From Candidatus Kaiserbacteria bacterium (lineage in GTDB: Bacteria > Patescibacteriota > Minisyncoccia > Phycocordibacterales > UBA918), in the NCBI GenBank assembly GCA_031430855.1, contig JANPCG010000010.1:35714-99713 (forward strand): a DNA stretch of 64,000 nt, in the 5' to 3' direction. The notes below the pieces were generated by a model, which was given only the letters and a program-made list of their open reading frames with translations, was not told where the DNA came from and searched no databases. Made by a program: the position numbers and the translations under genes. Positions 14,553 to 33,192 of this stretch are shown piece after piece; within the stretch, counting starts at the first letter, position 1; every line of letters starts with the position of its first letter.

Positions 14553-15512
14553 ATGCAGATAACTATTTCCACAGCGTTTATTCGTGTTGTTACCATTGCT
14601 GTAATTCTCTACGTTACCTTTGGAGCCGTCGCTGCGCACGCCGGATTTGGGATTACACCACCCTATGTACGTAACACGAGCTTGACGCGAAATTCTACCT
14701 ATGAACAACAAATCCTTCTGGTACGTGGTGATCCAAATGAACCATTAAATGCAGTCATTACTGTTGATGCGCCTGAGATTCAAGACTGGATCGAGATCGT
14801 AGAGGGTACCACAATTTTGATGCCTCGGGGTGAACAAAAAGTTACCATGACCGTGCGTATTAAAGTTCCTGAAGATGCAAACTTTCAAGAGTATGCGGGA
14901 AAAATTCGTATCAAAACTGAACCAACCGACGATCAGGTAGCGCAAGGAGTAGTGAGTATTTCTTTAGGTGCCCAGGTTGATATTAACGTAAACGTAATTG
15001 ACAGAGTAATCGAGGACTTTAGGGTTCGACGTATCTCTGTACTTGATTTAAATGAAGGCCATAAAGTTGGCTGGCTATATTTCCCGGGTAAAATTCAATT
15101 TTCAATGTCGATAGAGAATACTGGTAATATAGAAATTGCTCCGTCAAAAGTCCAGTTTAGAATATTTGATAGAACGGGAGCAGTATTACTTGAGGAAACG
15201 ACCCATAAAGGAAAACTCAATAAAATTGCACCATATCTTACTGGTGATATAACTTCAGAATTGCCAACCAGGCTTCCTCCAGGTAGTTATATGGCTCGGT
15301 ACAGTATATTTAATGGAGATGAGATAAAACAAGAAGGTGAGCTTAACCTCAGTATTCTACCGTACGGTACCCTTCAGACGTCTGGATTTGGCTTTAGCGG
15401 GCTTTCTGTCCCACACAAGCTATCATTACTCCTTCCAATCTTTGCTCTCCTAATCTTCATTCTCTACACAATTTACAATCGACGACTTCGGCGCAAAATG
15501 AGAGTGAAATAA
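14553..15512 (+). CDS. Signal peptide, a ~270-aa beta-rich ectodomain, a C-terminal TM helix and a short basic tail (paralog 1 of 3).
   Basis: The signal peptide is VVTIAVILYVTFGAVAAHA and the mature N-terminus reads GFGITPPYV. The C-terminus is LLLPIFALLIFILYTIYNRRLRRKMRVK. It shares architecture and motifs with ORFs 30567 and 31540, and resembles DUF916/DUF3324 (CscA-type) proteins, though that match was not verified. Confidence 0.65.
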   Translation: MQITISTAFIRVVTIAVILYVTFGAVAAHAGFGITPPYVRNTSLTRNSTYEQQILLVRGDPNEPLNAVITVDAPEIQDWIEIVEGTTILMPRGEQKVTMTVRIKVPEDANFQEYAGKIRIKTEPTDDQVAQGVVSISLGAQVDINVNVIDRVIEDFRVRRISVLDLNEGHKVGWLYFPGKIQFSMSIENTGNIEIAPSKVQFRIFDRTGAVLLEETTHKGKLNKIAPYLTGDITSELPTRLPPGSYMARYSIFNGDEIKQEGELNLSILPYGTLQTSGFGFSGLSVPHKLSLLLPIFALLIFILYTIYNRRLRRKMRVK

Positions 15513-15515
15513 ATA

Positions 15516-16637
15516 ATGCCTATGTATGAAAAGCTTACAGCACTCATACTGGGCATACTGATACTCGAGACATTTACGAGTACCAGAGTGTATGCAGTAG
15601 AAATCTTTACCGCTACGACGACGATTAACCTCAGTATTTGCGGAAATTCACTTGTTGATATTGGTGAACAATGTGACATTCCTGGCGAACTTGGGGTTTA
15701 CAGTACTACTATTGTTGGAAGACAGTGTTCTCCTGCGTGTCGTTTTGGTGCCTATTGTGGTGACGGTATTTTGCAAACGCAATTTTCTGAAGAATGTGAC
15801 GATGCCAATAATGATAGTGGCGACTTTTGTTCTGCTACCTGTACGATTGAACCGGCCGGGTCAGGAGGAGGAGGTTCCTCGGGAGGTGGTGGGTCACGCG
15901 GTGGAGGGACGCGAGATGTTGGAGGAACTCAAATTAGTATTACCGGTTTAGGCTATCCGAACCAGACGATTAACTTCTTACTCGATACTCGTTCAATTGG
16001 TTCAGTGCGAGCCAATACAGCGGGTCGCTTTGAATTTACTGCAGAAGCTTCACCCGGCACCGCCACCCTAGGAGTCTGGGCACAGGACAGTAGTGGTCGG
16101 AGATCTATTACCTTAAACAATACGTTTGATGTAACACAGGGGGCGGTAACAAATGTATCAGGTTTAATTTTACCTCCAACAATTTCTGTTCCAAGTCCTA
16201 ATATTATTCCCGGCAGTTCACTTGTCATCTCTGGACAAGCGATTCCGTCTGCAAAAGTTGATATCCACTTTAATAATAACGAAATTGTAGAATCAACGAA
16301 TAGTGCTGTTGATGGTCGATACACACTTACATTTAACACCACGCGACTGCGTAATGCTGAGTATGCAATTAAGGCCCGCTCAGTCACCGGAACGGCACCA
16401 CTTTTAACTCAGAGTGGATTTAGTAGTTTGCTCCAACTGTTTGTTGGTGTAGATGGTAAACCAACCACCTCATCAGATCTTAACCGTGACGGTAGTGTGA
16501 ATCTGATCGACTTTTCGATTTTAATTTTCTGGTGGCAAACTCCTGGTGGTGACTCTGAACCTCCGGCTGACATAAACAGTAATGGACGGGTTAGTCTGGA
16601 GGATTTCTCAATCCTACTCTTTAACTGGACCGGCTAG
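15516..16637 (+). CDS. Secreted protein with Cys-rich repeats, a poly-Gly linker, Ig-like region(s) and a C-terminal dockerin-like module.
   Basis: It has a signal peptide and repeats of CGDGILQ..EECDDANNDSGDFCSATC type. The linker is SGGGGSSGGGGSRGGG. The C-terminus (DLNRDGSVNLIDFSILIFWW ... DINSNGRVSLEDFSILLFNW) is a duplicated Ca-binding loop of the dockerin type (DxNxDGxVNxxD). Confidence 0.7.
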   Translation: MPMYEKLTALILGILILETFTSTRVYAVEIFTATTTINLSICGNSLVDIGEQCDIPGELGVYSTTIVGRQCSPACRFGAYCGDGILQTQFSEECDDANNDSGDFCSATCTIEPAGSGGGGSSGGGGSRGGGTRDVGGTQISITGLGYPNQTINFLLDTRSIGSVRANTAGRFEFTAEASPGTATLGVWAQDSSGRRSITLNNTFDVTQGAVTNVSGLILPPTISVPSPNIIPGSSLVISGQAIPSAKVDIHFNNNEIVESTNSAVDGRYTLTFNTTRLRNAEYAIKARSVTGTAPLLTQSGFSSLLQLFVGVDGKPTTSSDLNRDGSVNLIDFSILIFWWQTPGGDSEPPADINSNGRVSLEDFSILLFNWTG

Positions 16638-16657
16638 TATCTTGTTAATGTTTCTTC

Positions 16658-16677: not shown

Positions 16678-17080
16678 AACTCTTGAAAATAAGTTATGAC
16701 TTTGTTGTGCTACACTCGAATATTTTTATCGTATATTAAATACGCCTCAATTATTCTCACTAGCACGCCTCGTCAAAACTCATTTTGAAGCGTTCTAGAA
16801 AAAATTTGTGTATAAGTTTAGCGAAAAAAAATTCCGACACGTTACAATGATTTTGTACTGATGTTGGAGGTATCAATTTATCGATACTGCAAGTGCCACG
16901 TAAGTGGTATTTGGGCGCTTCAGCCAAGCGTTACAGCATGAGTATGTTTACATTCTTCTATAGGTAGTCGGTGTGGAGACTGACTGCTGGTATTGGCACA
17001 TTTATGTACCAATAGCACGACAAATGACTCTTTGTACAGCATTTGGAAGTGCAGTGTAAGCTAATACAACGTAGAGCCAT

Positions 17081-18232
17081 ATGAGTAGAACGAATACCAC
17101 GTTCGGACTACTCCAAGCCGCAGCTTTGACATTAGGACTGGCGATCATTTTATGGTCACTCGGACTGCCGTCGTTCCGCTTTGCGGAAGCTGCAAATGTC
17201 ACGTCGTTAAGCGACACACTCTCTGATTCCGCTCCTTCGGTTGGAGCAAATCATACAATCTCTTTTGTTACGCCAACTGGTGTAGCAAATGGACAAACCG
17301 TCGTTGTGGACTTTTCTAACGGCCCGTTTGTAGTAGGTACTGTCGATTTTACAGATATTGATGTCATTGATGGCACCACTAATCTCTCGGTCGCAACCAA
17401 CTGCTCTGGCGCACAAGAAACCAGTGCTGCGTTTTCAGGAACAACTCTCACGGTTACATTTTGTAGCGGTGATGGAGCAGAAATCCTTCCTAATGGTACA
17501 ACTACCATCTTGATTGGAACAAATGCCACCTTTGGAGTTGCGGGAAATGCACAGCTCACAAATCCGACTGTTGGATCGTATGAAATCAATCTAACTGCTG
17601 GCGCAAGTGATTCGGGTTCTACTCGAGTTGCAATTATTGCACCAGTTATCGTTACTGCAGCCGTTGATACCAGCTTTACGTTTACCGTAGCTGGACTTCC
17701 TGGCGCAGGAACAGTAAATCAAGAGCCAATCACCGGTAGTTCGACGGCAACAACAATTCCATTTGGAACGCTGGTTGCAAACTCTGCTTCAACGGCAGCG
17801 CAGCAATTAACCGTTCAAACCAATGCTAGTTATGGCTATGCTGTAACAGTACAGGTGGATCAGCAGTTAACGTCATCGACCGGAGCAGACATTGACGGAT
17901 TTGCTAATGGAACGTATACCTCAAATCCGATTGCATGGTCACAGCCATCAGAAAGTATTAGTAACGAAGATACCTGGGGACACTGGGGTCTTACGTCAGA
18001 CGATGCAACTTTTGGTCTCAGTGATCCATTTGACGCAGCAGGAACAGGCCAATTATTCGTATCTGCTTCAACCACACCGGTAGAAGTAATGCGTCATAAT
18101 GGTCCAGCTGATGGGGTAACGCAAAACATTGGTCTCGCCAAAGTAGGCTACACCGTAGAGATTTCTCCGCTACAAGAAGCAGGGAATGACTACACCGCTA
18201 CGCTGACATACGTAGCAACCCCAGTGTTCTAA
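17081..18232 (+). CDS. Secreted Thr/Ser/Gly-rich surface protein.
   Basis: The signal peptide is FGLLQAAALTLGLAIILWSLGLPSFRFAEA. The rest is low-complexity and beta-rich with no catalytic motif. A 440-bp AT-rich non-coding region lies upstream. Confidence 0.65.
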   Translation: MSRTNTTFGLLQAAALTLGLAIILWSLGLPSFRFAEAANVTSLSDTLSDSAPSVGANHTISFVTPTGVANGQTVVVDFSNGPFVVGTVDFTDIDVIDGTTNLSVATNCSGAQETSAAFSGTTLTVTFCSGDGAEILPNGTTTILIGTNATFGVAGNAQLTNPTVGSYEINLTAGASDSGSTRVAIIAPVIVTAAVDTSFTFTVAGLPGAGTVNQEPITGSSTATTIPFGTLVANSASTAAQQLTVQTNASYGYAVTVQVDQQLTSSTGADIDGFANGTYTSNPIAWSQPSESISNEDTWGHWGLTSDDATFGLSDPFDAAGTGQLFVSASTTPVEVMRHNGPADGVTQNIGLAKVGYTVEISPLQEAGNDYTATLTYVATPVF

Positions 18233-18352
18233 AGAATATTGGTCCAAGCTTGGAGTAATACAGCAAAAAACCCTATCTCCCACCACGAGTAGGGTTTTTG
18301 CTTTGTGTACAAAGTGAGTCTTTTTGTATCGCTAATACGATATACTATCGGA

Positions 18353-19369
18353 ATGAAGAGTATTCTCTGTGGAGTTATTGGTATGTGGTTTTTTATGTCG
18401 GGAACAACCTTTGCGGCAACGTTATATATAGATCCAAATAATGCCGAACTAAACCGAGGGGACTCAATTACAGTTGCCGTGAGACTTGATACTGATGAAG
18501 CGGCGGGGGAATGTATTAATGCAGTAGATGGAGTAATTACGTACAGTGAGTCTATTGTCGCAGATGATATTTCAATTGGCGAGTCAATTTTCCCGGTCTG
18601 GGTTGAGATGCCAACAATCAATAAAGAAAATCGGACGATCACGTTTGCTGGTGGTATTCCTAATGGCTATTGTGGTCGCGTACAAGGAGATCCTAATTTA
18701 ACTAATACGGTGGTTGAATTAGTATTTCGTTCACCAGGAATGCAGGTGGGTGGTGGATCAGAACGGACGGCCGCTTTAATACAATTTACTGATCAAACCA
18801 CTGCGTATTTAAATGATGGACTTGGTACCAAAGCGCGTTTAGAAAAATATGGAACAACCGTGTCGCTTTCTCCAGATGTCGGAACTGAGATTATAGATAC
18901 GTGGCGAGAAGAGGTTCAGGCAGATACGTTCCTACCAGAAGCGTTTAGTATTTCCCTCGAGCAAGATGAAAATACCTTTGATGGTAACGCCTATATTGTT
19001 TTTAATACGACAGACAAGCAAACCGGTATCAGTCATTATGAAGTGATCGAAGAAAATAGTAGGGAATCAAAACTCTTTAGTTTTGGTGCCGCAAATACTC
19101 CTTGGGAAAAGACGAGAAGCCCCTATGTACTCAAAGACCAATCTCTCAATAGTTTGATTCGGGTACGAGCAATAGACAAAGCCGGTAATGAATACATCGC
19201 AACTTTTATGCCTGATGAATCAATGCGAAAAGCAGCACCAATAAATTTTATAGTGATAGGAATTCTCACTGTTGTGACGTTGCTCATTTTTGCCATCATG
19301 GTGAGCCTTGGTATGCGTAAGCGTAGAAAGAAGCGTGTCATTCATGAAACAGTACCAAGCACAAAATAA
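18353..19369 (+). CDS. Membrane-anchored protein with an N-terminal cohesin-like module (C-terminal TM anchor).
   Basis: The signal peptide is MKSILCGVIGMWFFMSGTTFA. The ~140-aa beta-sandwich ATLYIDPNNAELNRGDSITVAVRLDTDEAAGECINAVDGVITYSESIVADDISIGESIFPVWVE...TVVELVFRSPGMQVGG resembles cohesin. The C-terminal TM is INFIVIGILTVVTLLIFAIMVSLGMRKRRKKR. Confidence 0.7.
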   Translation: MKSILCGVIGMWFFMSGTTFAATLYIDPNNAELNRGDSITVAVRLDTDEAAGECINAVDGVITYSESIVADDISIGESIFPVWVEMPTINKENRTITFAGGIPNGYCGRVQGDPNLTNTVVELVFRSPGMQVGGGSERTAALIQFTDQTTAYLNDGLGTKARLEKYGTTVSLSPDVGTEIIDTWREEVQADTFLPEAFSISLEQDENTFDGNAYIVFNTTDKQTGISHYEVIEENSRESKLFSFGAANTPWEKTRSPYVLKDQSLNSLIRVRAIDKAGNEYIATFMPDESMRKAAPINFIVIGILTVVTLLIFAIMVSLGMRKRRKKRVIHETVPSTK

Positions 19370-19375
19370 ATATTT

Positions 19376-21136
19376 ATGATTTCATTTCAGCTACAACAAA
19401 AAATTCAATTAATTAAAGTGCTCTATCTCACACTCACGCTTGTCACTGTTGTTCTAATTTTACCAACGGTCACTCTCGCTGCGACATTATCAGTTACCCC
19501 GGCGTCGGGTGTGTATTCAACCGGCGCCACATTTACGGTAAATGTGGTTGTTAATACAGCAGGGAAACCAATTAACGCAGCTGATGGAACGTTATCATTT
19601 AACCCTCGGGAATTGTCTGTAGTTTCGGCGTCTCGCGGCGCTTCAATTTTTAATCTCTGGACAGCAGAACCGACATTTTCAAATTCTGCCGGAACGGTCA
19701 CCTTTGGTGGAGGTTTACCAAGTGGGTATACGGGCGCTGGAGGAAATGTAATGACGGTTACGTTTAAATCACTCACGTCAGGTGCTGCTCGGGTGTCACT
19801 TACGGGCGCTTCAGTCTTGGCCGCTGATGGACGCGGGACGAATGTTTTAACCTCGATGAGTGGCGGCACGTATACTCTCAGTGCGCCAACGTCCCAACCA
19901 GCACAAGAGGTGATTGTAGAGTTTGTTGCTCCTGCGAACACTCCGGCAGCTCCAGTCGTTACGTCAAAGACTCATCCAAGCCCAAATCAATGGTCTCAGG
20001 CAAAAGTAGCGGAACTTACCTGGATCCTTCCAGCAGGAGTTACCGGTGTGCGAACACTTTTAAATGAATCTCCCGTTTCAGTACCAACTAAAGTATATGA
20101 CGAACCTTTGCGCTCTATCACGCTCCCTGATTTAGATGAGGGGATTTCATATTTCCATGTGCAATTTAGAAACGCTGATGGTTGGGGTAAGGTAGCTCAC
20201 TTTAGGTTAGCAGTTGATAGTGCAAAGCCTTCATCTTTTGAACTAAAGCTTGAAGAAGGAGCTGATGTAACAAAATCAAAGCAAGCTCTGATTGCACTGG
20301 TTGCAGACAAAACATCAAACGTTCTACGATTTAAGGTTCAGATTAATGGGGCCGAGCCATACGAATACATTCGGCCATATGCGACCGCTACCATTCCACT
20401 TCATGACCTGAAACCAGGCAACCAGACGATTGTCGTTGAAGCCTTTGACGAAGCAGGGAATTCAATTGTGAGTACGTACTCATTTGTTATTAGTTCGTTT
20501 GAAAAACCTATTTTTACAGAGTTTCCTAGTGAATTATCCGCCGGAGTGACACCTGTAATTCGAGGTACTACTCGTCCTGAATCAACCCTTTCGATTACCA
20601 TTACGCCAACTAATGGTGAGGCTCGTACAGAAAGTACTCGTAGTGATAGTAGTGGGGCCTTTACCTTTGTCTCTTCAGCTCCATTTTCAACCGGAGTCTA
20701 TCAAGTGGCCGCTACAGCGATTGATAATGAAGGTTCACAAAGTAAACCTTCAGATACTCTCACCATCACCGTAAGAGAGCCGGGGTATGTCATCGTAGGC
20801 ACATTTTTGATTAATGTTCTTTCTGTTATTATTCCGTTAATTGCCCTTTGTGTTCTTACGTGGATTGTACTGGTATATTCACTTAATCGACTCAGAACGC
20901 TGCGACGAAAGGTTCTTATTGAGTCGGATGAAGCTGTTCTTGTGTTGCGAAAACAATTTATCCATGTCTATGAAGTATTAGACGAAGAAGAACGCAAACT
21001 TGTCGGTTCGCGCAAGACACAAAAATTAACAGAGGCGGAAGCACATTTGATTGAATCGATGCGAATAGCTCTTCATGAGGCTGAGAGCAAGGTGGCGAAA
21101 GAAGTTGAAGATGTCACAAAAATAATTACAAAATAA
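19376..21136 (+). CDS. Membrane-anchored protein: cohesin-like module, Ig/Fn3-like domains, a C-terminal TM helix and a cytoplasmic coiled-coil tail.
   Basis: The cohesin-like block is LSVTPASGVYSTGATFTVNVVVNTAGKPINAADGTLSFNPRELSVVSASRGASIFNLWTAEPTFSNSAGTVTFGGGLPSGYTGAGGNVMTVTFKSLTSGAARVSLTGASVL. The TM is FLINVLSVIIPLIALCVLTWIVLVY, followed by a charged helical tail. Confidence 0.7.
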   Translation: MISFQLQQKIQLIKVLYLTLTLVTVVLILPTVTLAATLSVTPASGVYSTGATFTVNVVVNTAGKPINAADGTLSFNPRELSVVSASRGASIFNLWTAEPTFSNSAGTVTFGGGLPSGYTGAGGNVMTVTFKSLTSGAARVSLTGASVLAADGRGTNVLTSMSGGTYTLSAPTSQPAQEVIVEFVAPANTPAAPVVTSKTHPSPNQWSQAKVAELTWILPAGVTGVRTLLNESPVSVPTKVYDEPLRSITLPDLDEGISYFHVQFRNADGWGKVAHFRLAVDSAKPSSFELKLEEGADVTKSKQALIALVADKTSNVLRFKVQINGAEPYEYIRPYATATIPLHDLKPGNQTIVVEAFDEAGNSIVSTYSFVISSFEKPIFTEFPSELSAGVTPVIRGTTRPESTLSITITPTNGEARTESTRSDSSGAFTFVSSAPFSTGVYQVAATAIDNEGSQSKPSDTLTITVREPGYVIVGTFLINVLSVIIPLIALCVLTWIVLVYSLNRLRTLRRKVLIESDEAVLVLRKQFIHVYEVLDEEERKLVGSRKTQKLTEAEAHLIESMRIALHEAESKVAKEVEDVTKIITK

Positions 21137-21145
21137 CTATACTGT

Positions 21146-21811: not shown

Positions 21812-21814
21812 ACT

Positions 21815-24332: not shown

Positions 24333-24389
24333 ATCACTCTCTACAGTCCCCCTGTTTCCGTGACGCTTAAACCATGCGAGAATAAAGGA

Positions 24390-27300: not shown

Positions 27301-30300
27301 CAGCAAGTGGGGGTATTGAAAATACACAAGTTACTAATCACTCGCAAAATACTCAAATACGCCTTCGTCTTGGAGTCAGTAACGAAGGGGTGGCAACATC
27401 TACTAATGCCTTCTATCGACTAGAGTTTGGACCTAAAATTACTACGTGTAGTTCTGTAGCGATATGGACGAGTGTTGGAGCCGCTGCTGATGACTGGAAT
27501 ATGTTTAATTCACCTAATATTACTGAAGGAAACAACACCACAAATATTGCTACCTCAAGCGGCGGAGTAACAGACGGAAACACTTCTTTTTTGGTCGTAA
27601 ATGGTGGTCTTCGTGACACGTCTGCGACCACATCAGCTATAACGTTAAGTAGTACTCAATTTACAGAACTTGAGTATAGTATTACTTCCTCAGCTTTGAC
27701 AGCGTTTAATACAACTTATTGTTTCCGCGTTTCTAACGCTGGGAATCCGCTCCCGCAATATGATACGTATGCAGAAATTACAACTGCACCGGCTCGCGAC
27801 TTTAAAGTACAACGCGGCGATGTAGTAATTACAAGTACCAGCTCTACGTTAGTTGCTGGTGTAGATTACGTCGCCCCAACAGCTTCCTCTACTGCATTTA
27901 TACGTATCACAAACGCGCATCATACGGGAGCTGGTCGAATCACTCTTGGTGCAGCACAAAATGCACGAGACGTGACAGCCTATATCGTAAACCCAACCAA
28001 CATTCAAACGAGTGTTACGATTGCTCGTCCCGCCTTTACCCTTAATAACACTCGAGTCTCATGGGAAATTGTTGAATTTATTGCCGCCACCGGTACTGAT
28101 AATGAAATGATTGTCCGGTCTGCCGGTTCATTACAAATGCCGACCGCATCAACGTCTGCTACAGGTACGGCGATATCATCAGTTGTTGATGATAGTAAAG
28201 TGGTTGTTTTTATCACGGGGCTCTATAACCGCGATGCCGGACGAAATGTGTATTATGCCGGACAAATAACAACCTCATGGGACGCGACAAATAACCGGCC
28301 AATTTTTACGCGTGGTGCCGGAGGAGCGATTATTGATGTCAGTTATGCAGTTGTTGAATATACAGGCATCAATTGGCAAATTCAAAGAATTGAACATACG
28401 TATAGTGCTACCAATACGATTGAAACTAAAGCGATCGCTCCCGTTAATAGTTTGGCGCGTACTTTTATCCATTCTCAAAAGCGTGTTGGCGCACTTGGTA
28501 ACGTTGACAATTTTGGACATGAAGTATGGCTGTCGAGTATTGGGGCAGTGTCGTTTCGTCTTGAAGCAGGAGCGTCAACTCCAACGAGTCATGTTTCAGT
28601 GGCATGGGTAATAGAAAACCAACAAACGAGTGCCGGGGCTATGAAAGTGCAGCGCAGTAATGGAAACACTACTGATGGAACTGAGCCGGTAGTTTTAGCA
28701 GTAGATATATTTACCCCTATTGCGGCACTTAATAATTCTTCTATATTTTTGAACACGAGGGTAGTAGGAGCAAACTCAAACTTTCCTCTGCCGATGGCCG
28801 GCGCCAGTATTGTTTCTACCTCTTCGTACAATATATGGCGAAGCGAGGCAACTGGTGGGTTATTAACCTATCGAACTGAAATTGTTGAGTGGCCAACTAA
28901 TGGACTGGCGGTCCGACAAAATTATTACCGTTTCTATTCTGATAATAACGCTCTTATTCCAACTGATGCTTGGCCACCAGGACCAACAAATTTGGGTGAA
29001 AATACATCCATAACAGCGCTAGATGAACCGCTAGGAGATGGTGATCGGGTGCGATTACGCATGACTGCTCGGGTGGCAAACGCGAACCTTCCCGCCGGAC
29101 TCTATGACTTTAAATTGCAATACGGTCAGAGAATATCGTCATGTTCTGCGATTGCAAGTTGGTCTGATGTTGGATCAACCACGAGCGGCACAATTTGGCG
29201 TGGCTATAATGCTCCCGGGGTAACAAATGGAGTCGTGCTATCAACTGACCCTCCTACTGGCGGTGACTTATTACTGTCGGTTAGCGATGTGGCTGGAAAC
29301 TACGTAGAGCTAAATCCATCTCCGACAAATCCTTATATTGTTGAACCAGGAGAAGATGTAGAGTTTGATTGGCACCTCGAAGATAATGGTGCACTGGAAC
29401 GAACTAGCTACTGTTTTCGCATGATAAAGAGTGATGGTGCTACTTTAGATGGGTACTTTAATTACCCTCAAATCAGAACTGCGAGTTTTACACCGGCGGG
29501 AAAAAAATGGCGTTGGTATGATGACACCGAGAACGAAACGCCAAGCACTCCTTTATCTGCTGAAGAAGTCGCTCCAATTGAAATCGGAGCCAATAACCCG
29601 ATAGCACTACGTATTACAGTTGATGAAATCAAAAATGTACAAGGTCTTAATATAAAATTCAAATTACAATTTGATGAGAGTAGTTTGTTTACTAATCCAC
29701 GTGATGTTGTTGCTACGAGTTCATGTGTTGCTACTTCGACCTGGTGTTACAGTACAGGCGGGGGTGTAAATAACACTAAAGTTACCTCCCGCGTTCTTTC
29801 CGATTCTGATCCATGCATCGCAAGTGTTGGTATTGGATGTGGTACACACAATAATTCGCCCACCTATACAACAGGCGATACACATCCGTCTGGTGCTCTC
29901 CGTGAATATTCATTTTATCTTGAACAACGTTCTGCCCGTGTTGGTGCAGTGTACTATTTTAGACTCTACGAAACGTTAAACAGTCTCCCCGTTGCGCCCG
30001 CTTCAACCAGCACCTATCCGAGTCTGGTTGCAGAAAGTGCAACGCTGTTTCTTACGGTATCGGGGTTGCCTGCCGGAACAACGACAGCGGGCGTAGTCAC
30101 GGCTGCCTCATCAACACCTAACACAATTGCTTTTGGCTCACTCCCACTCAATACTGACGTAAATGCAGCTCATCGCGTGACACTTGATACGAATGCTACA
30201 CAAGGGTACCGCGTACTCACGTATGCACGACAACAACTCATAAACTCATATAACACTGCAATTCCATCAATTATTGGTTCAAATGCGACACCTACCAGTT

Positions 30301-30557
30301 GGGCCATTGGTTGTCTCTCGAGCACTACTGGATGTGTAGGGTATCACAGTACTGACGCTACACTTAGCGGTGGTTCTACTCGATTTGCACCACTCGATAG
30401 CTATGCACCACTTGATAGTACTCCAAGAGAAATTATGTTTGGCTCTTTTCCAACGACCGATGTCCATGATATTGTATATAGAGTCAGGGTTCGATCGAGT
30501 CAACCAGCCGGTGACTACGAAACTGAAATCATCTATCTTGCTATTCCAGTCTACTAA
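24390..30557 (+). CDS. Giant surface protein (~2055 aa): N-terminal TM, BNR/sialidase-like propeller region, tandemly duplicated ~350-aa modules, then further jelly-roll-like modules.
   Basis: The preferred start is ATG 24390 (aaagga N3 ATG), within an ORF opening at GTG 24360. The TM is GVTLTLLLTILVSQISFVSFLL. BNR-like Asp-box motifs are present (TTNGGTSWG; WNGSSWSGSW). Two tandem modules each end in YCFRV[TS]NAG.PLPQY. The later modules begin Y.F[RY].D[ND]... Confidence 0.75.
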   Translation: MRNFPAFFGRKNNYSRGVTLTLLLTILVSQISFVSFLLPTVVEAAVVTIDGDANQNSTSHLFSGGQTVFISDQVGYKFFRDNPSAGPCVYRKTTNGGTSWGAAVTVDAQTDCAGIVVWYDQWTPGDFGNSIHIATMDTAAAIDNLFYNRLDTNTDTLLMGTAPANATASSSQGGTYAVGTNAHTITKGTDGTLYLASQDASDSFVVRCSASCNAAGSWTEAGTAPIGLTNDWNILMPLSGGNILLLNRANTLDDIQSKIWNGSSWSGSWTTIDSNAIENTTYDVGMAATIDHSTGDIYLAYAADNDTFTVADHDLRTAKYTSGSWTSGTAVFTNRAGIGLLQTAISVDSNTSTIYLGYTMRTTPGTAASANVYYATGTAALSSWGAEQGPVNTTSANLYGVDFNIMSDERIYASWFDATLFDILGNTVADISPVVKVSTRGIPTASVTASTSNVYLGGTFVIKEGQTTRNVTDIVISESGTIDAENAIKNVSLYYDLDTTAPYDCASESYVGSESKYGSTDTNGFSSANGVSSFVDVVSISATQALCVYVAADVTDAALDGSTVRLSVSNPPSDVLVSGGAIATPLIPVGFVAGTNVFNDQLSQGHYQFRNDNGNEAGATSATGGTQDTPLGAIQPNSPKRLRIAVSNEGSISTPVTQFRLEYAVAAPTCDVASSWTDVGATNDAWNMFDSTFVTDGSNTTDIATSTGGTTNENTTFLTPNGGVRDTTSQTGSLTLTNANFVELEYSIVASTTAIEGATYCFRVTNAGAPLPQYLVYPSATISADATLSAAGSQVTSAVIPELNLYVGGKFGIRENLSSRTVTNITITETGSVDGQLNLDNIRIAYDLDTSAPYDCASESYVGGEAQFGAIDTNGFSSANGSSTFAGSVSITTTQSICAYVVLDVVSSALNDDTVKIGIASGGNDITVSSGSVSPSTPVSLTGTTTLSGSVVAQTAYHFRNDNGSETGATSASGGIENTQVTNHSQNTQIRLRLGVSNEGVATSTNAFYRLEFGPKITTCSSVAIWTSVGAAADDWNMFNSPNITEGNNTTNIATSSGGVTDGNTSFLVVNGGLRDTSATTSAITLSSTQFTELEYSITSSALTAFNTTYCFRVSNAGNPLPQYDTYAEITTAPARDFKVQRGDVVITSTSSTLVAGVDYVAPTASSTAFIRITNAHHTGAGRITLGAAQNARDVTAYIVNPTNIQTSVTIARPAFTLNNTRVSWEIVEFIAATGTDNEMIVRSAGSLQMPTASTSATGTAISSVVDDSKVVVFITGLYNRDAGRNVYYAGQITTSWDATNNRPIFTRGAGGAIIDVSYAVVEYTGINWQIQRIEHTYSATNTIETKAIAPVNSLARTFIHSQKRVGALGNVDNFGHEVWLSSIGAVSFRLEAGASTPTSHVSVAWVIENQQTSAGAMKVQRSNGNTTDGTEPVVLAVDIFTPIAALNNSSIFLNTRVVGANSNFPLPMAGASIVSTSSYNIWRSEATGGLLTYRTEIVEWPTNGLAVRQNYYRFYSDNNALIPTDAWPPGPTNLGENTSITALDEPLGDGDRVRLRMTARVANANLPAGLYDFKLQYGQRISSCSAIASWSDVGSTTSGTIWRGYNAPGVTNGVVLSTDPPTGGDLLLSVSDVAGNYVELNPSPTNPYIVEPGEDVEFDWHLEDNGALERTSYCFRMIKSDGATLDGYFNYPQIRTASFTPAGKKWRWYDDTENETPSTPLSAEEVAPIEIGANNPIALRITVDEIKNVQGLNIKFKLQFDESSLFTNPRDVVATSSCVATSTWCYSTGGGVNNTKVTSRVLSDSDPCIASVGIGCGTHNNSPTYTTGDTHPSGALREYSFYLEQRSARVGAVYYFRLYETLNSLPVAPASTSTYPSLVAESATLFLTVSGLPAGTTTAGVVTAASSTPNTIAFGSLPLNTDVNAAHRVTLDTNATQGYRVLTYARQQLINSYNTAIPSIIGSNATPTSWAIGCLSSTTGCVGYHSTDATLSGGSTRFAPLDSYAPLDSTPREIMFGSFPTTDVHDIVYRVRVRSSQPAGDYETEIIYLAIPVY
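25700..27795 (+). repeat. Tandem duplication of a ~1.05 kb (~350 aa) module within the giant gene.
   Basis: Copy 1 (YLGGTFVIKEGQTTRNVTDIVISESGTIDAENAIKNVSLYYDLDTTAPYDCASESYVGSESKYGSTDTNGFSSANG...) and copy 2 (YVGGKFGIRENLSSRTVTNITITETGSVDGQLNLDNIRIAYDLDTSAPYDCASESYVGGEAQFGAIDTNGFSSANG...) align over their full length. Confidence 0.6.
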
Positions 30558-30566
30558 CTTTCGTTT

Positions 30567-31562
30567 ATGAAAAATTATTTTCCTCTCCTTATCGCGACTA
30601 TAGTAATACTGTCTCCGTTTAGTCATCTGCAGGCTGCTGATTACGGTATTTCTCCACTTATTATTGATCGAAATATTGAAGCGCGCGAAAGTTTTGAAGA
30701 AACCGTTAAAATTACCAATTCAAGTGATCGAAAGTTACGTCTCTTTCCTACGGTGAATGAAATTACAGTTGGTTCAGATGGGGAAATTCTTGATTTTGTA
30801 CCGGCTTCAATGAGTAATAACGCTACTAGTGTCACCAGTTGGATCGCAGTAACTCGTGGACGGGTAGAAATAAATCCCGGAGAAACCATTAAAGTGCCGG
30901 TTACCGTATCAGTTAGTCCGACTGCCGTGCCTGGTGAATACCACGCTTTTATCGGATTTGCTGAGGGGTCAAAACGAGACGAAGCAGAGTTAAAAGTTCA
31001 AAATGGAAGTGCTCCAGGAGTTGTCGTGCGTTTGTCCTTGAGTGAAAAGAGAAGTGAATACCTCCGTCTCCAAAAATTTTCGGTGGCCCGGTTTGTCACA
31101 AAACCCGAAGATACAGAGCTTACGTATGTGATAGAAAACGTTGGTGAAAAACCCTTGACGCCAAAAGGTGAAATTATATTTTATGATGTCCGTGGGTCTG
31201 AAAAAGCTACTCTCCCGGTAAATCCTGAACAGTTTGAAATACGAGCTCAGTCTTCTAAAGAATTCGTTGCGACAATTCCCGCAATTGGAGCCATTGGAAA
31301 ACATAAAGCCTTTATTAACATTGAATACGGATCAACACAAAGGGCTAATTTGTATGATACTACTTATTTTAATATTGTCCCTTTAAAGATTTTGATTAGT
31401 TTGTTCATTTCTTTTTTGGTAGTTTCAATACTGCTCGCACTTTACTATCACCGTCGTACCACGAAACATTCAGTTCGAGATGAGGAAGAAGGAGTAAGTG
31501 TCTACGTACGCAGTGGAGTGTCATCAAGTGATAAAGATCATGATATCAATCTCAAACAATAG
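30567..31562 (+). CDS. Signal peptide, beta-rich ectodomain and C-terminal TM (paralog 2 of 3).
   Basis: The signal peptide is LLIATIVILSPFSHLQA, with ADYGISPLIID after cleavage. The C-terminal TM is ILISLFISFLVVSILLALYYHRR. It is 9 nt downstream of the giant gene and has the same architecture as 14553. Confidence 0.65.
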   Translation: MKNYFPLLIATIVILSPFSHLQAADYGISPLIIDRNIEARESFEETVKITNSSDRKLRLFPTVNEITVGSDGEILDFVPASMSNNATSVTSWIAVTRGRVEINPGETIKVPVTVSVSPTAVPGEYHAFIGFAEGSKRDEAELKVQNGSAPGVVVRLSLSEKRSEYLRLQKFSVARFVTKPEDTELTYVIENVGEKPLTPKGEIIFYDVRGSEKATLPVNPEQFEIRAQSSKEFVATIPAIGAIGKHKAFINIEYGSTQRANLYDTTYFNIVPLKILISLFISFLVVSILLALYYHRRTTKHSVRDEEEGVSVYVRSGVSSSDKDHDINLKQ

Positions 31563-33192
31563 TCGCCTGTTCATTTTGTTAGCGCTTGCTTTTATTATCA
31601 GTTTAACACTGACTAATTTTGCATTGGCTGAGACTCCAACTACACAAACATTAAGTGTTTCTCCGACGTTGTTTCAGATGAGTGTTAATCCCAGTCAAGC
31701 TTGGGTGAGTGAACTACGTGTCACAAATGTTAATGATTTCGATATTACCATTTACCCGCAAGTGGTTAATTTCGCTCCTTTGGGTGAGAGCGGGAGGGGA
31801 GATTTGATTCCTGTTTTTACCTCAGAAACCAAAGGATCTACGCTTGCTGAATGGATAAAGCTTGATCCTGTTGGTGTTCTGGTTCCGAAACAAGAAACCA
31901 AGACGCTCTCTTTTTCTGTCAACGTTCCTCCAACCGCAGCGCCCGGAGGTCATTATGCAGCAATATTGATTGGCACAAAACCGCCAACCGCTGTTACCGG
32001 TAAATCACAAGTCCAAACAGCTCAGTTTGTAACCTCATTGTTTTTTGTCCGGGTAGCGGGTGATGTTACCGAAAAGGGAATGATCCGAGAATTCAGAACC
32101 ACCGAAAAACTACTCGATACCCCTCACGTTACGTTTGAATTACGATTTGAAAATGAAGGAAATGTTCACCTTCAACCACAGGGTGACATCGTTATCAGTA
32201 ATATGTGGGGTGAGGAGCGGGGAATTATCCCAATTAATCAACAAACTCATTTCGGTAATGTCCTCCCACAAAGTGTCCGTAAATTCGAGTTTACTTGGTC
32301 TGGTGTCGCTTCAGTATTTGATATTGGGCGGTATAAGGCGATTGCTACATTGGGCTACGGTGAAGAATCAAAGAATTTTGTAACCAGTACTACCTATTTT
32401 TGGATTGTACCGATTCAGCAAATACTTATCACCCTGATTGTGATGGGGTTCCTCATATGGTTGTTTACCTTTGCGGTGAGAATGTACGTGCGTCGGATGC
32501 TTACTCTCGCTGGTATCGAACCGCGTACTATGTATACAGAGAAAACGGGAGCTATTACTGCCGTTAGGGCAGACAAGACCGTGATTATTAAGCGTTATCG
32601 CACTGTAGCCGCTCCGGTAATAATTGGACTTAGAGAACTTAAAAAACAGTTATTTTCTGAAACCAATATGCGTGCCCGCATGAAGGTGATTCTTCAGTCA
32701 TTCTACCGGTATAGACTCTTAGTAGGTACTGTTCTGGGATTTTTTGTTGTTGTGTTCTTTGTAATTCTTTTTATTCAAAGTGTTACCAAACCAGATGCAC
32801 CTTATAGTGTTACGATTACGAATCCGGATTCAAGCGTTACTCTTTCTTCCGAACAAATAATTTATAATGATCTTGAAAAAACAAAAACTGACACGAAGGG
32901 GGCTACTACTTCCGAACAAAACTTTGCAATCAAAGTCATAAATGTAAGTGGCATAACTGGTCAAGCAGCAAGGGCTCGGCTTAGTCTTGAGTCCGCAGGC
33001 TATGCAGTGAGTGAAATTGGGACTGACCCAACCCGTATCGAAGAAAAGTCAGCTATTGTATACAACGGCGTACCTCCAAAAACAGTACTTGAGATTAGTA
33101 AACTCCTTAATAACGCACTCCCTTCAGCGAGTGCTGAAATTGATATTGATACGGTCGTTATATACGTCGGGACAGACATCGCAGAAGACTAG
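31540..33192 (+). CDS. Paralog 3: signal peptide, beta-rich ectodomain, two TM helices and a C-terminal LytR_C-like (LCP C-terminal) domain.
   Basis: The signal peptide is RLFILLALAFIISLTLTNFALA. The ectodomain (TQTLSVSPTLFQMSVNP...) resembles 14553 and 30567. The TM helices are ILITLIVMGFLIWLFTFAV and LLVGTVLGFFVVVFFVILFI. The C-terminal block AIKVINVSGITGQAARARLSLESAGYAV...IVYNG fits the LytR_C pattern. The start overlaps the previous gene by 23 nt. Confidence 0.6.
   Translation: MISISNNSRLFILLALAFIISLTLTNFALAETPTTQTLSVSPTLFQMSVNPSQAWVSELRVTNVNDFDITIYPQVVNFAPLGESGRGDLIPVFTSETKGSTLAEWIKLDPVGVLVPKQETKTLSFSVNVPPTAAPGGHYAAILIGTKPPTAVTGKSQVQTAQFVTSLFFVRVAGDVTEKGMIREFRTTEKLLDTPHVTFELRFENEGNVHLQPQGDIVISNMWGEERGIIPINQQTHFGNVLPQSVRKFEFTWSGVASVFDIGRYKAIATLGYGEESKNFVTSTTYFWIVPIQQILITLIVMGFLIWLFTFAVRMYVRRMLTLAGIEPRTMYTEKTGAITAVRADKTVIIKRYRTVAAPVIIGLRELKKQLFSETNMRARMKVILQSFYRYRLLVGTVLGFFVVVFFVILFIQSVTKPDAPYSVTITNPDSSVTLSSEQIIYNDLEKTKTDTKGATTSEQNFAIKVINVSGITGQAARARLSLESAGYAVSEIGTDPTRIEEKSAIVYNGVPPKTVLEISKLLNNALPSASAEIDIDTVVIYVGTDIAED

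What the first reader, a model, noticed from the sequence alone, without database searches (positions are those of the whole stretch)
14553..33192. Candidate non-cellulosomal cohesin-dockerin surface assembly island
About 19 kb of contiguous + strand genes encode only exported or membrane-anchored proteins. Three proteins (18353-19369, 19376-21136, 21815-22567) carry N-terminal ~140-aa beta-sandwich modules with a cohesin-like sequence pattern (the ..G.tftV.V.v...i.a.dg.l.yd...L.v.sv...G.vtF.gG....a.vtFk...G.a.v.l block). Two proteins (15516-16637 and 21815-22567) end in duplicated Ca-binding loops of the dockerin type (DLNRDGSVNLIDFSILIFWW / DINSNGRVSLEDFSILLFNW; DIDGDGTVSLRDISSFMASW / DFNGDGNMTFKDFSIILADFF). 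Two cohesin proteins are C-terminally TM-anchored, one with a cytoplasmic coiled-coil tail. One protein carries both a cohesin and a dockerin, so it could act as a bridging adaptor. The island also holds a 2055-aa giant protein and three paralogous anchored beta-sandwich proteins, and an FtsX-type ABC transporter lies immediately upstream. No glycoside hydrolases are present, so this looks like a modular scaffold for building a surface (adhesion or host-attachment) complex rather than a cellulosome. Pairing specificity, cargo and function are all unknown.
Basis: partly seen in the sequence, partly recalled or inferred. Interest (0 to 1): 0.8.

Follow-up and report, generated by a model that had tools for sequence, protein, structure and literature searches.

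The report
Pilus locus with cohesin-dockerin anchoring modules
The cohesin and dockerin modules are real, but they sit inside a conserved gene cluster of an ultra-small (CPR/Paceibacteria) bacterium that most likely builds a chaperone-assembled surface filament with a giant tip adhesin, and the cohesin-dockerin pairs probably tie that filament or its accessory proteins to the cell membrane.

Summary
The 19-kb run encodes only exported or membrane-anchored proteins, with three homologous cohesin modules and two dockerins. Pfam thresholds are passed by 19376-21136 (cohesin) and 15516-16637 (dockerin).

- 17081-18232 is a very conserved two-domain pilin-like protein. Its C-terminal domain is a distant relative of the Pam pilus pilin of CPR bacteria (NCBIfam NF058581, below cutoff).
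- The 2055-aa giant carries the same C-terminal domain.
- The "three paralogous anchored beta-sandwich proteins" have a PapD/WxLIP chaperone fold plus a C-terminal membrane helix.

The gene order is kept in about 55 Paceibacteria species genomes. A second, paralogous locus type keeps the same four families together: pilin, chaperone, dockerin protein and membrane cohesin. In that locus the dockerin protein is a fusion of the pilin N-domain, the pilin linker strand and a dockerin, with no acceptor domain.

Best reading: a Pam-like donor-strand-exchange pilus, with cohesin-dockerin pairs as membrane anchoring or adaptor modules. Polymerisation and binding are inferred, not shown.

I rate it a new variant of a known kind. 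A covarying 5' leader RNA upstream of the pilin gene was found in passing.

The parts
2..7840 (+). C-terminal 2613 aa of a very large exported protein that starts outside the window (about 6980 aa in the same-organism contig L003; DUF2341). Probably an associated surface fibre or adhesin.
   Evidence: Pfam DUF2341, 80.7 bits. The gene call of 6980 aa is in L003. Its last ~200 aa are homologous to the C-terminus of 12587-14461 (E 3e-13), and a ~160-aa repeat matches the giant 24360-30557 (E 5e-13).
9840..12527 (+). MacB/FtsX-type ABC transporter: ATPase 9840-11162 with a ~210-aa C-terminal extension, and permease 11292-12527. A conserved neighbour of type-1 loci; its involvement is unproven.
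   Evidence: Pfam ABC_tran, MacB_PCD and FtsX; NCBIfam LolD/MacB-like. It is 73-92% identical across type-1 loci but absent from type-2 loci.
12587..14461 (+). 624-aa exported Thr/Ser/Cys-rich protein. A highly conserved strand (A52-TTTLTVLNTPP-63) follows directly after the N-terminal hydrophobic segment. Its C-terminal domain is shared with the upstream giant.
   Evidence: Present in all type-1 loci. Conservation profile. C-terminal homology to the upstream giant. No relation to the pilin C-domain by hhalign.
14553..15512 (+). Membrane-anchored chaperone-like protein 1: signal peptide, two beta-sandwich domains, C-terminal TM.
   Evidence: hhalign 97.4% to the 30567 family. TM at residues 290-308. 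56-75% identical across type-1 loci.
15516..16637 (+). Secreted dockerin protein: Cys-rich repeat, Gly/Ser linker, two Ig-like domains, C-terminal dockerin (type A).
   Evidence: Pfam Dockerin_1 29.8 bits (above 22.9) and Big_6; TIGR02232 Cys-rich repeat. Residues 122-373 are 35% identical (E 2e-38) to the C-terminal half of the type-2 pilin-dockerin fusion.
16805..17080 (+). Conserved promoter-like boxes (TTTGTGTATAAG 16805-16816; TACAAT 16843-16848) and a structured 5' leader of about 230 nt for the pilin mRNA (helices roughly 16855-17062; invariant AATACAACGTAGAG just before the ATG).
   Evidence: Alignment of 32 species. RNAalifold gives 39 pairs, 32 with compensatory changes. 89.6% of cells are paired against 35-43% in slid controls, and the covariation score is 0.613 against at most 0.152. 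No Rfam family matches.
17081..18232 (+). Major pilin-like subunit: signal peptide, N-terminal beta-sandwich (about 40-185), hydrophobic invariant linker strand (183-197), C-terminal Ig-like domain (199-383).
   Evidence: NCBIfam NF058581 CPR_Pam_pilin_C, E 8e-5 for this protein, matched by 44/46 orthologues (best 1.6e-7) and 30/55 distant relatives (best 1.5e-10). AF2 model. More than 2329 homologues, with the best 120 at 65-100% identity. 1805 clusters at 50% identity.
18265..18304 (+). Terminator-like hairpin followed by a U-run, directly after the pilin gene.
   Evidence: Sequence. Folding energy -20.2 kcal/mol, z = -3.56.
18353..19369 (+). Membrane-anchored cohesin protein (short): signal peptide, cohesin-like module, Ig-like middle domain, C-terminal TM.
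   Evidence: hhalign 99.7% to the cohesin module of 19376; middle domain 94.8% to the 19376 middle domain. TM at 299-317. No direct Pfam hit.
19376..21136 (+). Membrane-anchored cohesin protein (long): signal peptide, cohesin, Ig-like domains (Big_13), TM, charged cytoplasmic tail of ~90 aa.
   Evidence: Pfam Cohesin 31.4 bits (above 24.1) and Big_13 36.7 bits. TM at 481-499. The type-2 counterpart has the same layout and tail.
21146..21811 (+). 221-aa protein with an N-terminal TM and a helical, charged remainder. Poorly conserved; role unknown.
   Evidence: mean column conservation 0.46. Present in type-1 loci only.
21815..22567 (+). Cohesin + dockerin (type B) protein: the candidate adaptor.
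   Evidence: Pfam Dockerin_1 20.4 bits and Cohesin 16.3 bits, both sub-threshold. Orthologues: Dockerin 41/47, Cohesin 15/47, EF-hand_1 47/47. hhalign 99.2% to the 19376 cohesin. 842 homologues.
22683..24332 (+). 549-aa exported protein with a weak TolB-like beta-propeller signal. Variable; role unknown.
   Evidence: NCBIfam weak hits. 28-55% identical in type-1 loci.
24360..30557 (+). Giant exported protein (2055-2065 aa), the candidate tip adhesin. It has a variable repeat-containing body and a pilin-type C-terminal domain at its extreme C-terminus, with no pilin linker motif.
   Evidence: C-domain matches the pilin C-domain: BLASTP E 7e-12 and hhalign 99.5%, aligned from pilin residue 198 onward. 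No hit to the linker HMM. The C-domain is kept at the C-terminus of orthologues of 1134 and 2073 aa. Tandem ~350-aa repeat at 47% identity.
30567..31562 (+). Membrane-anchored chaperone-like protein 2.
31498..33192 (+). Membrane-anchored chaperone-like protein 3, with a second TM and an extracellular LytR_C domain. The true start is probably the ATG near 31540.
   Evidence: BLASTP E 1e-19 to 30567. Pfam LytR_C 34.5 bits and WxLIP_PGBD 21.0 bits. TMs.

Best explanation
The island is the main ('type-1') copy of a surface-filament locus that is conserved across Paceibacteria (Parcubacteria-type CPR bacteria). It is related to the recently described Pam pili of CPR bacteria, and it has the same gene logic as the WxL/WxLIP clusters of Firmicutes.

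Proposed mechanism (inferred):
1. All components are exported by Sec.
2. Three membrane-anchored PapD/WxLIP-like chaperones (14553, 30567, 31498) hold the incomplete Ig-like C-domain of subunits.
3. The giant protein (24360-30557) has the acceptor C-domain but no donor linker, so it starts the fibre and ends up at the tip as the adhesin.
4. Copies of the abundant pilin (17081-18232) then add at the base. Each inserts its invariant hydrophobic linker strand into the C-domain of the previous subunit (donor-strand exchange).
5. The cohesin-dockerin set is the membrane-attachment and adaptor layer. Cohesins on the TM proteins 19376 and 18353 bind the Ca-dependent dockerins of 15516 and 21815. 21815 offers a further cohesin.

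In the paralogous type-2 locus this link is explicit. There the dockerin protein is itself a pilin N-domain plus donor linker without an acceptor domain. That makes it a donor-only chain terminator whose dockerin would plug the fibre base into the membrane cohesin.

From co-occurrence I predict two pairs: dockerin A (15516) with the 19376-type cohesin, and dockerin B (21815) with the 18353-type cohesin.

Shown by computation: domain identities, folds, homologies, synteny and the fusion. Inferred: polymerisation, chaperone action, tip and base positions, and cohesin-dockerin binding.
For: (1) Pilin.
- The only family hit is NF058581 'Pam pilus system pilin subunit'. It recurs in 44/46 orthologues and 30/55 distant relatives, best E 1.5e-10.
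- AF2 gives two beta-sandwich domains joined by a segment (189-195) with pLDDT below 50. That segment is the most invariant and most hydrophobic stretch of the protein. The Pam paper reports the same pattern for the donated linker.

(2) The same C-domain sits at the end of the giant, whose body varies from 1134 to 2073 aa. The giant lacks the linker motif.

(3) Chaperone-like proteins.
- The AF2 model is confident (pLDDT 88.8) with a C-terminal TM helix.
- PamC and PamD are described as PapD/FimC-like with a C-terminal TM helix.

(4) Gene expression signals. The pilin gene has its own long, covarying 5' leader and a terminator hairpin, as expected for a very abundant structural subunit.

(5) Synteny. 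The order ABC, FtsX, 12587, 14553, 15516, pilin, 18353, 19376, 21146, 21815, 22683, giant is kept in about 55 species-level genomes, with pilin identity down to 45%.

(6) Type-2 paralogous loci have different intervening genes but again combine pilin, WxLIP-like chaperone (Pfam WxLIP_PGBD 32.4 bits, above 27.3), dockerin protein (29.5 bits, above 22.9) and TM cohesin protein (30.6 bits, above 24.1).

(7) The type-2 dockerin proteins (10 orthologues) align to the pilin family over the N-domain and linker motif (hhalign 99.3%, E 9e-21). They end in a dockerin roughly 73% identical by eye to that of 15516, against 35% over the whole aligned half.

(8) Cohesin and dockerin identity is supported.

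(9) No sortase, LPXTG motif, usher or type IV pilus genes are in the window.
Against: - The pilin scores far below the curated NF058581 cutoff (22.7 against 55 bits), so it is not a formal member of that family.
- PamA/PamB structures (PDB 25PZ, 25QA) are not in the PDB copies searched. Direct comparison was therefore impossible.
- Fold searches with the pilin model returned only generic Ig-like adhesins and Gram-positive pilins.
- No multimer prediction could be run, so donor-strand insertion, chaperone-subunit complexes and cohesin-dockerin pairing are all untested.
- The type-1 dockerin protein in the window (15516) lacks the pilin N-domain and linker. The anchoring role shown by the type-2 fusion is extrapolated to this island.
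- The Pam paper mentions no cohesin, no dockerin and no Paceibacteria.
- The synteny comes from related genomes and could partly reflect shared ancestry.
- The chaperone-like fold is also that of WxLIP, which is proposed to bind cell wall and host rather than to act as an assembly chaperone.
Confidence: 0.6

Rival explanations
1. A WxL-cluster-like, non-filamentous surface complex. The 383-aa protein and the giant would be displayed as single molecules, held on the envelope because a strand of the TM-anchored WxLIP-like proteins inserts into their shared C-terminal domain. There would be no polymerisation.
For: - Pfam WxLIP_PGBD is the most frequent hit among orthologues (32/61) and passes its threshold in the type-2 paralogue.
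- The defining WxL layout is mirrored here: a small protein plus a large protein sharing a C-terminal domain, plus a two-Ig-domain TM protein.
Against: - No Pfam WxL-domain hit for the pilin or the giant, even at E up to 1. The only hit of the C-domain is the Pam pilin model.
- The invariant hydrophobic inter-domain linker has no role in this model. Nor does the donor-only pilin-dockerin fusion.
- The two models may not be exclusive if WxL clusters themselves work by strand complementation.
Confidence: 0.15
2. One reading: a self-contained, non-cellulosomal cohesin-dockerin scaffold that assembles a multi-protein adhesion complex. The other genes would be cargo or bystanders.
For: Real cohesin and dockerin modules, two TM-anchored cohesins and one cohesin+dockerin protein. 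No glycoside hydrolases.
Against: - Only two proteins carry dockerins. The most conserved proteins of the island (pilin, chaperones, giant) have none, so they cannot be cohesin-dockerin cargo.
- The model does not explain the shared pilin C-domain, the chaperone fold or the pilin-dockerin fusion.
Confidence: 0.1
3. Two independent systems that are merely neighbours. A pilus or adhesin operon and a separate cohesin-dockerin surface-display set would stay adjacent only because these small genomes are collinear.
For: All type-1 loci come from one CPR class, and downstream housekeeping genes (redoxin, AI-2E transporter) are also syntenic.
Against: The paralogous type-2 loci have different intervening genes (FGE-sulfatase-like, HSP20) yet keep the same four families together. 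There a pilin N-domain and linker are fused to the dockerin in one polypeptide.
Confidence: 0.1
4. The 383-aa protein is an S-layer or sheath subunit that forms a 2-D lattice rather than a pilus. The cohesin-dockerin and chaperone-like proteins would be envelope anchors for it.
For: Very high conservation, its own strong expression signals and huge family size. One weak NCBIfam 'putative S-layer protein' hit for 14553 (E 0.037).
Against: No S-layer domain hit for the pilin. The specific hit is to the Pam pilin C-domain. The two-domain-plus-linker architecture and the giant with the same C-domain fit a fibre with a tip better than a lattice.
Confidence: 0.05

Closest known systems
Pam pili of CPR bacteria (Candidatus Mycosynbacter amalyticus; Troman et al., bioRxiv 10.64898/2026.03.03.709456)
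   Same: - Two-domain Ig-like pilin with a conserved inter-domain linker and a C-domain related to NF058581.
- Several pilin-type proteins in one operon.
- PapD-like chaperones carrying a C-terminal TM helix.
- No usher, sortase or ATPase-driven machine.
- Restricted to CPR.
   Different: - The sequence relation is only distant (below the NCBIfam cutoff).
- The host lineage is Paceibacteria, not Saccharimonadia or Microgenomatia.
- The candidate tip is a giant of up to ~2070 aa, not a small single-domain PamT.
- No RbmA-like PamR with an N-terminal strand was identified.
- Three cohesin and two dockerin modules are present (and a pilin-dockerin fusion in the paralogous locus). None of these is mentioned for pam operons.
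- The neighbours differ: a MacB-type ABC transporter here, against ATP synthase, CorB and MFS genes there.
WxL / WxLIP gene clusters of Firmicutes (Hassan, Chaudhuri and Williamson 2023, PMC10599100; PDB 9i1y EfmWxLIP1)
   Same: - A small and a large surface protein share a C-terminal domain.
- Strand insertion between the TM protein and the shared domain is the proposed contact.
   Different: - No WxL motif or Pfam WxL hit.
- WxLIP_PGBD is sub-threshold in the window proteins.
- WxL proteins are thought to be cell-wall-bound monomers, not polymers.
- No cohesin or dockerin is known in WxL clusters.
Cellulosomal and non-cellulosomal cohesin-dockerin systems (Pfam PF00963 / PF00404)
   Same: - Cohesin modules of about 140 aa and C-terminal duplicated Ca-loop dockerins.
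- Anchoring proteins and an adaptor that carries both module types.
   Different: - No enzymes, CBM, SLH or sortase anchoring. Anchoring is by a TM helix with a cytoplasmic tail.
- There are only 2-3 modules rather than a multi-cohesin scaffoldin.
- The modules are embedded in a pilus-like operon.
- One dockerin is fused to a pilin domain in the paralogous locus.
Chaperone-usher pili of Gram-negative bacteria (Pap/Fim, CFA/I, Csu)
   Different: No outer membrane and no usher. The chaperones are membrane-tethered. The donor strand is an inter-domain linker rather than an N-terminal extension.

Membership tests
Cohesin-dockerin system | Cohesin module (Pfam PF00963) above the gathering score | tested here: met
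   19376-21136 scores 31.4 bits against 24.1, or 36 bits for the module alone. 18353 and 21815 qualify only through homology to it (hhalign 99.7% and 99.2%). 39/61 family modules hit Cohesin.
Cohesin-dockerin system | Dockerin: duplicated 12-residue Ca-binding loop plus helix (Pfam PF00404) above the gathering score | tested here: met
   15516-16637 scores 29.8 bits against 22.9. 21815-22567 scores 20.4 bits, which is sub-threshold. 41/47 orthologues match at E up to 0.01. A profile also hits EF-hand proteins and the dockerin 2y3n_B. The loops read D-x-N/D-x-D/N-G-x-h-x-x-x-D directly in the sequence.
Cohesin-dockerin system | Nine-stranded cohesin beta-sandwich fold | not tested
The only support is sequence-profile matches to solved cohesins (5m2o E 0.004; 1g1k aligned over its full length).
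Cohesin-dockerin system | Specific Ca-dependent binding between a cohesin and a dockerin | not testable with these tools
   No multimer prediction or experiment was available. Pairing was inferred only from co-occurrence: type-2 loci hold one type-A dockerin and one 19376-type cohesin.
Cellulosome | Dockerin-bearing carbohydrate-active enzymes and a multi-cohesin scaffoldin | tested here: not met
   There are no glycoside hydrolase or CBM domains in any island protein, and each cohesin protein has a single cohesin.
Pam pilus system (CPR) | Pilin C-terminal domain matching NCBIfam NF058581 at or above its cutoff (55 bits) | tested here: not met
   22.7 bits, E 8e-5. Among relatives the best E-values are 1.6e-7 and 1.5e-10, which I estimate to be still below the cutoff. 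This is significant distant homology, not formal membership.
Pam pilus system (CPR) | Pilin architecture: N-terminal beta-sandwich, single linker strand, C-terminal Ig-like domain, with the linker and C-domain most conserved | tested here: met
   The AF2 model has domains at about 40-185 and 199-383, and a linker with pLDDT below 50. The linker is invariant and hydrophobic.
Pam pilus system (CPR) | PapD/FimC-like chaperones with a C-terminal TM helix in the same operon | tested here: met
Pam pilus system (CPR) | Membrane-anchored terminator (PamR: N-terminal donor strand, two FnIII, TM) | tested here: inconclusive
Pam pilus system (CPR) | Filament assembled by donor-strand exchange | not testable with these tools
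   This needs multimer modelling or cryo-EM.
WxL cluster (Firmicutes) | WxLIP protein: DUF916 (PF06030), DUF3324 and a TM helix | tested here: inconclusive
WxL cluster (Firmicutes) | At least two proteins with a WxL domain | tested here: not met
   No Pfam WxL hit for 17081-18232 or the giant at E up to 1 and 0.1 respectively. The C-termini end in Y-x-A-x-L-x-Y-x-A-x-P-V-F/Y rather than W-x-L.
Sortase-assembled Gram-positive pili | LPXTG sorting signal and a pilin-specific sortase | tested here: not met
   The only hit is an insignificant Gram_pos_anchor match (E 0.48) over the TM of 18353. No sortase domain was found in any window protein scanned. Fold similarity to Gram-positive pilins is generic.
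Chaperone-usher pili | Outer-membrane usher | tested here: not met
   No usher domain was found in the window.

The most novel reading that the evidence does not exclude
Paceibacteria anchor a chaperone-assembled, donor-strand-exchange pilus to the cytoplasmic membrane through a cohesin-dockerin joint. A donor-only, dockerin-tagged pilin-like subunit would cap the fibre base and plug into a TM cohesin protein whose conserved cytoplasmic tail could couple the fibre to the cell interior. A cohesin+dockerin adaptor would allow modular exchange of what is attached.

Together with the WxLIP-like fold of the chaperones, this would tie three things into one superfamily of monoderm 'membrane-chaperone' strand-complementation systems: Pam pili of CPR, WxL clusters of Firmicutes and non-cellulosomal cohesin-dockerin modules.
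Probability: 0.3. Interest if true: 0.85.

Novelty: new variant of a known kind. Interest (0 to 1): 0.68.

Why it matters
CPR/Patescibacteria make up a large share of bacterial diversity. Most are thought to live attached to other cells, yet the attachment machinery of the dominant environmental class (Paceibacteria/Parcubacteria) is unknown.

This locus is present in roughly 55 or more species-level genomes. It centres on a pilin family with about 1800 clusters at 50% identity, so it is a strong candidate for that machinery.

It would extend the just-described Pam pilus type to a new class. It would give non-cellulosomal cohesin-dockerin pairs a concrete job in pilus or adhesin anchoring. It also points to an evolutionary link with the WxL/WxLIP clusters of gut Firmicutes.

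The predictions are directly testable:
- which strand is donated;
- which cohesin binds which dockerin;
- whether the giant sits at the tip.

Tried and rejected
- Sequence searches of the PDB with the pilin (single sequence and profile), the 19376 protein and the chaperone profile gave nothing useful. The Pam structures 25PZ/25QA are not in the copy.
- I tested whether the C-terminal region of 12587-14461 is a third pilin C-domain. hhalign found nothing. It instead shares its C-terminus with the upstream giant.
- A short HMM of the pilin linker found no second donor-type strand in any other window protein. The apparent similarity of the mature N-termini of 15516 (ATTTINLSI) and 12587 (ATTTLTVLN) to pilin strands is therefore left as an untested lead.
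- NCBIfam has no chaperone model that matches the 30567 family.
- I considered the ABC/FtsX pair as the assembly motor. It is much more conserved than the island (73-92% identity) and absent from type-2 loci, so I treat it as a neighbour of unknown relevance.
- The promoter and terminator consensus scans were at background level. The pilin terminator and leader were found by reading and alignment instead.
- The Pam paper's supplement holds no sequences, so no direct alignment with PamA-E, C/D or R was possible.
- Literature searches found no paper on cohesin-dockerin systems in Paceibacteria.

Full report
**What is in the window.**
Between 14553 and 33192 there are eleven + strand genes. All products begin with a hydrophobic signal or anchor segment. 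Five also have C-terminal or internal TM segments. The surrounding genes are housekeeping: Tgt, UvrA/B/C, Ddl and two tRNA-Ala. Homologues carry names such as Candidatus Paceibacteria, Parcubacteria, Kaiserbacteria, Nomurabacteria and Patescibacteria group. The organism is therefore a Paceibacteria-type CPR bacterium.

**Check of the cohesin and dockerin claim.**
- Pfam Cohesin passes its gathering score for 19376-21136 (31.4 bits against 24.1).
- Pfam Dockerin_1 passes for 15516-16637 (29.8 bits against 22.9).
- 21815-22567 is just below threshold for both (16.3 and 20.4 bits). 18353-19369 has no direct hit.
- The three N-terminal modules are nevertheless one family. BLASTP gives E 1e-13 to 7e-15, and hhalign gives 99.7, 99.2 and 97.0%.
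- Among 61 modules collected from the window and related loci, 39 hit Pfam Cohesin (best 2.1e-11) and no other family recurs.
- The module profile's PDB matches are cellulosomal cohesins in 9 of 10 cases.
- Of 47 orthologues of 21815-22567, 41 hit Dockerin_1 and 15 hit Cohesin. The C-terminal profile hits both EF-hand proteins and a solved dockerin.
- No glycoside hydrolase was found.

The cohesin fold itself was not modelled, and no binding was tested.

- The only family hit for 17081-18232 is NCBIfam NF058581, 'Pam pilus system pilin subunit' (E 8e-5, 22.7 bits, cutoff 55).
- The same model is hit by 44 of 46 orthologues (best 1.6e-7). It is also hit by 30 of 55 relatives at about 30-40% identity (best 1.5e-10).
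- The model comes from a 2026 preprint on Candidatus Mycosynbacter amalyticus. It describes:
  - pilins with an N-terminal beta-sandwich, a single linker strand that is donated to the neighbour, and a C-terminal truncated Ig domain;
  - PapD/FimC-like chaperones (PamC/D) that, unusually, carry a C-terminal TM helix;
  - a CTD-only tip pilin;
  - an RbmA-like TM anchor.
- The AF2 model of 17081-18232 has two beta-sandwich domains (about 40-185 and 199-383). They are joined by a stretch (189-195) with pLDDT below 50.
- That stretch is the most invariant and most hydrophobic part of the protein: V183, A184, I185, V189, V191, T192, A193, V195 and T197 are invariant in 46 orthologues. The preprint reports the same conservation pattern for the donated linker.
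- The family is very large: more than 2329 clusters at 90% identity and 1805 at 50% identity.
- The gene has its own long 5' region and a terminator hairpin.

**The giant and the chaperones.**
- The last ~185 aa of the giant (24360-30557) are homologous to the pilin C-domain (E 7e-12; hhalign 99.5%).
- The alignment starts after the pilin linker, and a linker HMM finds nothing in the giant. The giant looks like an acceptor-only subunit.
- Orthologous giants range from 1134 to 2073 aa but keep the C-domain at the extreme C-terminus. The body contains a tandem ~350-aa repeat.
- The 'three paralogous anchored beta-sandwich proteins' are homologous to each other.
- The AF2 model of 30567-31562 is confident (pLDDT 88.8). 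It shows two beta-sandwich domains and a TM helix.
- Orthologues give sub-threshold Pfam hits mainly to WxLIP_PGBD (32/61) and the ASH domain (31/61).
- In Firmicutes, WxLIP proteins (two Ig domains plus a TM helix) occur with one small and one large protein that share a C-terminal WxL domain. AlphaFold predicts a strand of WxLIP inserting into that domain. The island has the same logic, but no WxL domain is detected.

**Conservation and the link between the two halves.**
- Gene order from the ABC transporter to the giant is identical in the same-organism contig and in genomes whose pilin is 45-74% identical. That is about 55 of the 80 species-representative loci retrieved.
- About 20 further loci are a paralogous 'type-2' arrangement, often 30-45 kb away on the same contig.
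- A type-2 locus holds a pilin paralogue and, immediately downstream, a chaperone-like protein (WxLIP_PGBD 32.4 bits, above threshold). Unrelated genes follow (FGE-sulfatase-like, HSP20). Then come a dockerin protein (29.5 bits) and a TM cohesin protein (30.6 bits) with the same cytoplasmic tail as 19376.
- The type-2 dockerin protein begins like a pilin. Ten orthologues align to the pilin family across the N-domain and the VAIIDxVxV linker motif (hhalign 99.3%, E 9e-21).
- It then continues into a small domain, a Gly/Ser linker, two Ig domains and a dockerin. The C-terminal half is homologous to 15516 (E 2e-38). It has no acceptor C-domain.
- A donor-only pilin-like protein with a dockerin, encoded next to a membrane cohesin, is what a fibre-base terminator anchored by a cohesin-dockerin joint would look like.
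- Type-2 cohesin modules group with the 19376 type (41-54% identity, against 27-38% for the other two types). Type-2 dockerins group with the 15516 type. This suggests the pairs 15516::19376 and, by elimination, 21815::18353.

**Interpretation.**
The best-supported reading is a Pam-like, chaperone-assisted donor-strand-exchange filament. It would have a giant tip adhesin, with cohesin-dockerin modules serving as the membrane anchoring and adaptor layer. I put this at about 0.6.

The domain identities, folds, homologies, synteny and the fusion are computed results. Polymerisation, chaperone function, subunit order and cohesin-dockerin binding are inference.

The main caveats:
- The relation to Pam pilins is sub-threshold.
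- No direct comparison with Pam proteins or structures was possible.
- No multimer models could be run.
- The window's own dockerin protein (15516) lacks the pilin N-domain.

The rivals are:
- a non-polymeric WxL-like complex;
- mere neighbourhood of two independent systems;
- an S-layer subunit.

**Boundaries.**
The functional unit probably extends upstream of 14553. 12587-14461 is syntenic in all type-1 loci. It shares its C-terminal ~200 aa with the huge DUF2341 protein that ends at 7840, and that protein also shares a repeat with the giant. The MacB-type ABC pair is a highly conserved neighbour that is absent from type-2 loci, so its role is open.

**Novelty.**
Pam pili (2026 preprint) and non-cellulosomal cohesin-dockerin modules are each known. 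What appears not to have been described:
- their combination;
- the pilin-dockerin fusion;
- the occurrence in Paceibacteria;
- the WxLIP-like nature of the chaperones.

I rate this a new variant of a known kind.

Noticed in passing
window 16805-17080: The ~230 nt between a conserved TACAAT box and the pilin start codon form a structured RNA leader conserved in 32 species. It has 39 pairs in 6 helices, 32 of them with compensatory changes. 89.6% of cells are paired against 35-43% in slid controls, and 0/500 shuffles reach the observed values. Conserved loops are GGAGG-containing, UCAGCCG and GUGGAGAC, and an invariant AAUACAACGUAGAG lies just before the AUG. No Rfam family matches. It is possibly an mRNA-stabilising or regulatory leader.
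   Followed up: partly
window 18265-18304: A stable hairpin (-20.2 kcal/mol, z = -3.56) followed by a U-run lies directly after the pilin gene. This suggests the pilin is transcribed largely as its own unit within the cluster.
   Followed up: yes
window 2-7840 and 12587-14461: The huge upstream exported protein (about 6980 aa in L003; DUF2341) and the 624-aa protein share a C-terminal ~200-aa domain (E 3e-13). This is a second 'small plus giant protein with a common C-terminal domain' pair beside the pilin and giant. The upstream giant also shares a ~160-aa repeat with 24360-30557.
   Followed up: partly
L080 (CAZKFF010000004.1) 10001-18569, and about 20 other loci (L038, L063-L065, L068-L072, L075, L079-L081, L083 and others): A paralogous 'type-2' locus contains a pilin paralogue, a WxLIP-type chaperone, a small TM protein, two FGE-sulfatase-domain proteins, a pilin-N-domain/dockerin fusion protein, HSP20 and a TM cohesin protein. 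It often lies 30-45 kb from the type-1 locus on the same contig, and in L068 and L071 directly after it.
   Followed up: partly
window 12740-12775 (residues 52-63 of 12587-14461) and 15612-15644 (residues 33-43 of 15516-16637): Both proteins have a strongly conserved beta-strand-like motif directly after the signal or anchor segment: ATTTLTVLNTPP and ATTTINLSICG. These could be N-terminal donor strands, but no test was possible.
   Followed up: no
window 20874-21136 and L080 17019-18569 (C-terminal ~90 aa): The long cohesin protein and its type-2 counterpart keep a charged, heptad-like cytoplasmic tail after the TM helix. This hints at a cytoplasmic partner or signalling role.
   Followed up: no
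window 31498-33192: The third chaperone-like paralogue has a second TM segment and an extracellular LytR_C domain (34.5 bits). This suggests a link to the cell envelope or wall.
   Followed up: no
window 9840-11162: The MacB/LolD-type ABC ATPase carries a ~210-aa helical C-terminal extension with no family hit. The ABC/FtsX pair is 73-92% identical across species, far more conserved than the island proteins.
   Followed up: no
window 56539-61282 (- strand): An AcrB-family RND transporter (600 bits) with a HlyD-type membrane-fusion protein occurs in a CPR genome. This is unexpected for an organism thought to lack an outer membrane.
   Followed up: no
loci L008, L009, L015, L024 and others: Many TPA metagenome bins carrying the full type-1 locus are titled 'uncultured Candidatus Saccharibacteria bacterium'. 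Their locus is 70% or more identical to those of bins titled Kaiserbacteria, Parcubacteria or Paceibacteria. The record titles are probably unreliable taxonomic labels.
   Followed up: no
window 39088-39531 (- strand): A 147-aa ORF reads like a REP-associated/IS200-type Y1 transposase (HYHLV motif in the translation). It was not scanned against any library.
   Followed up: no
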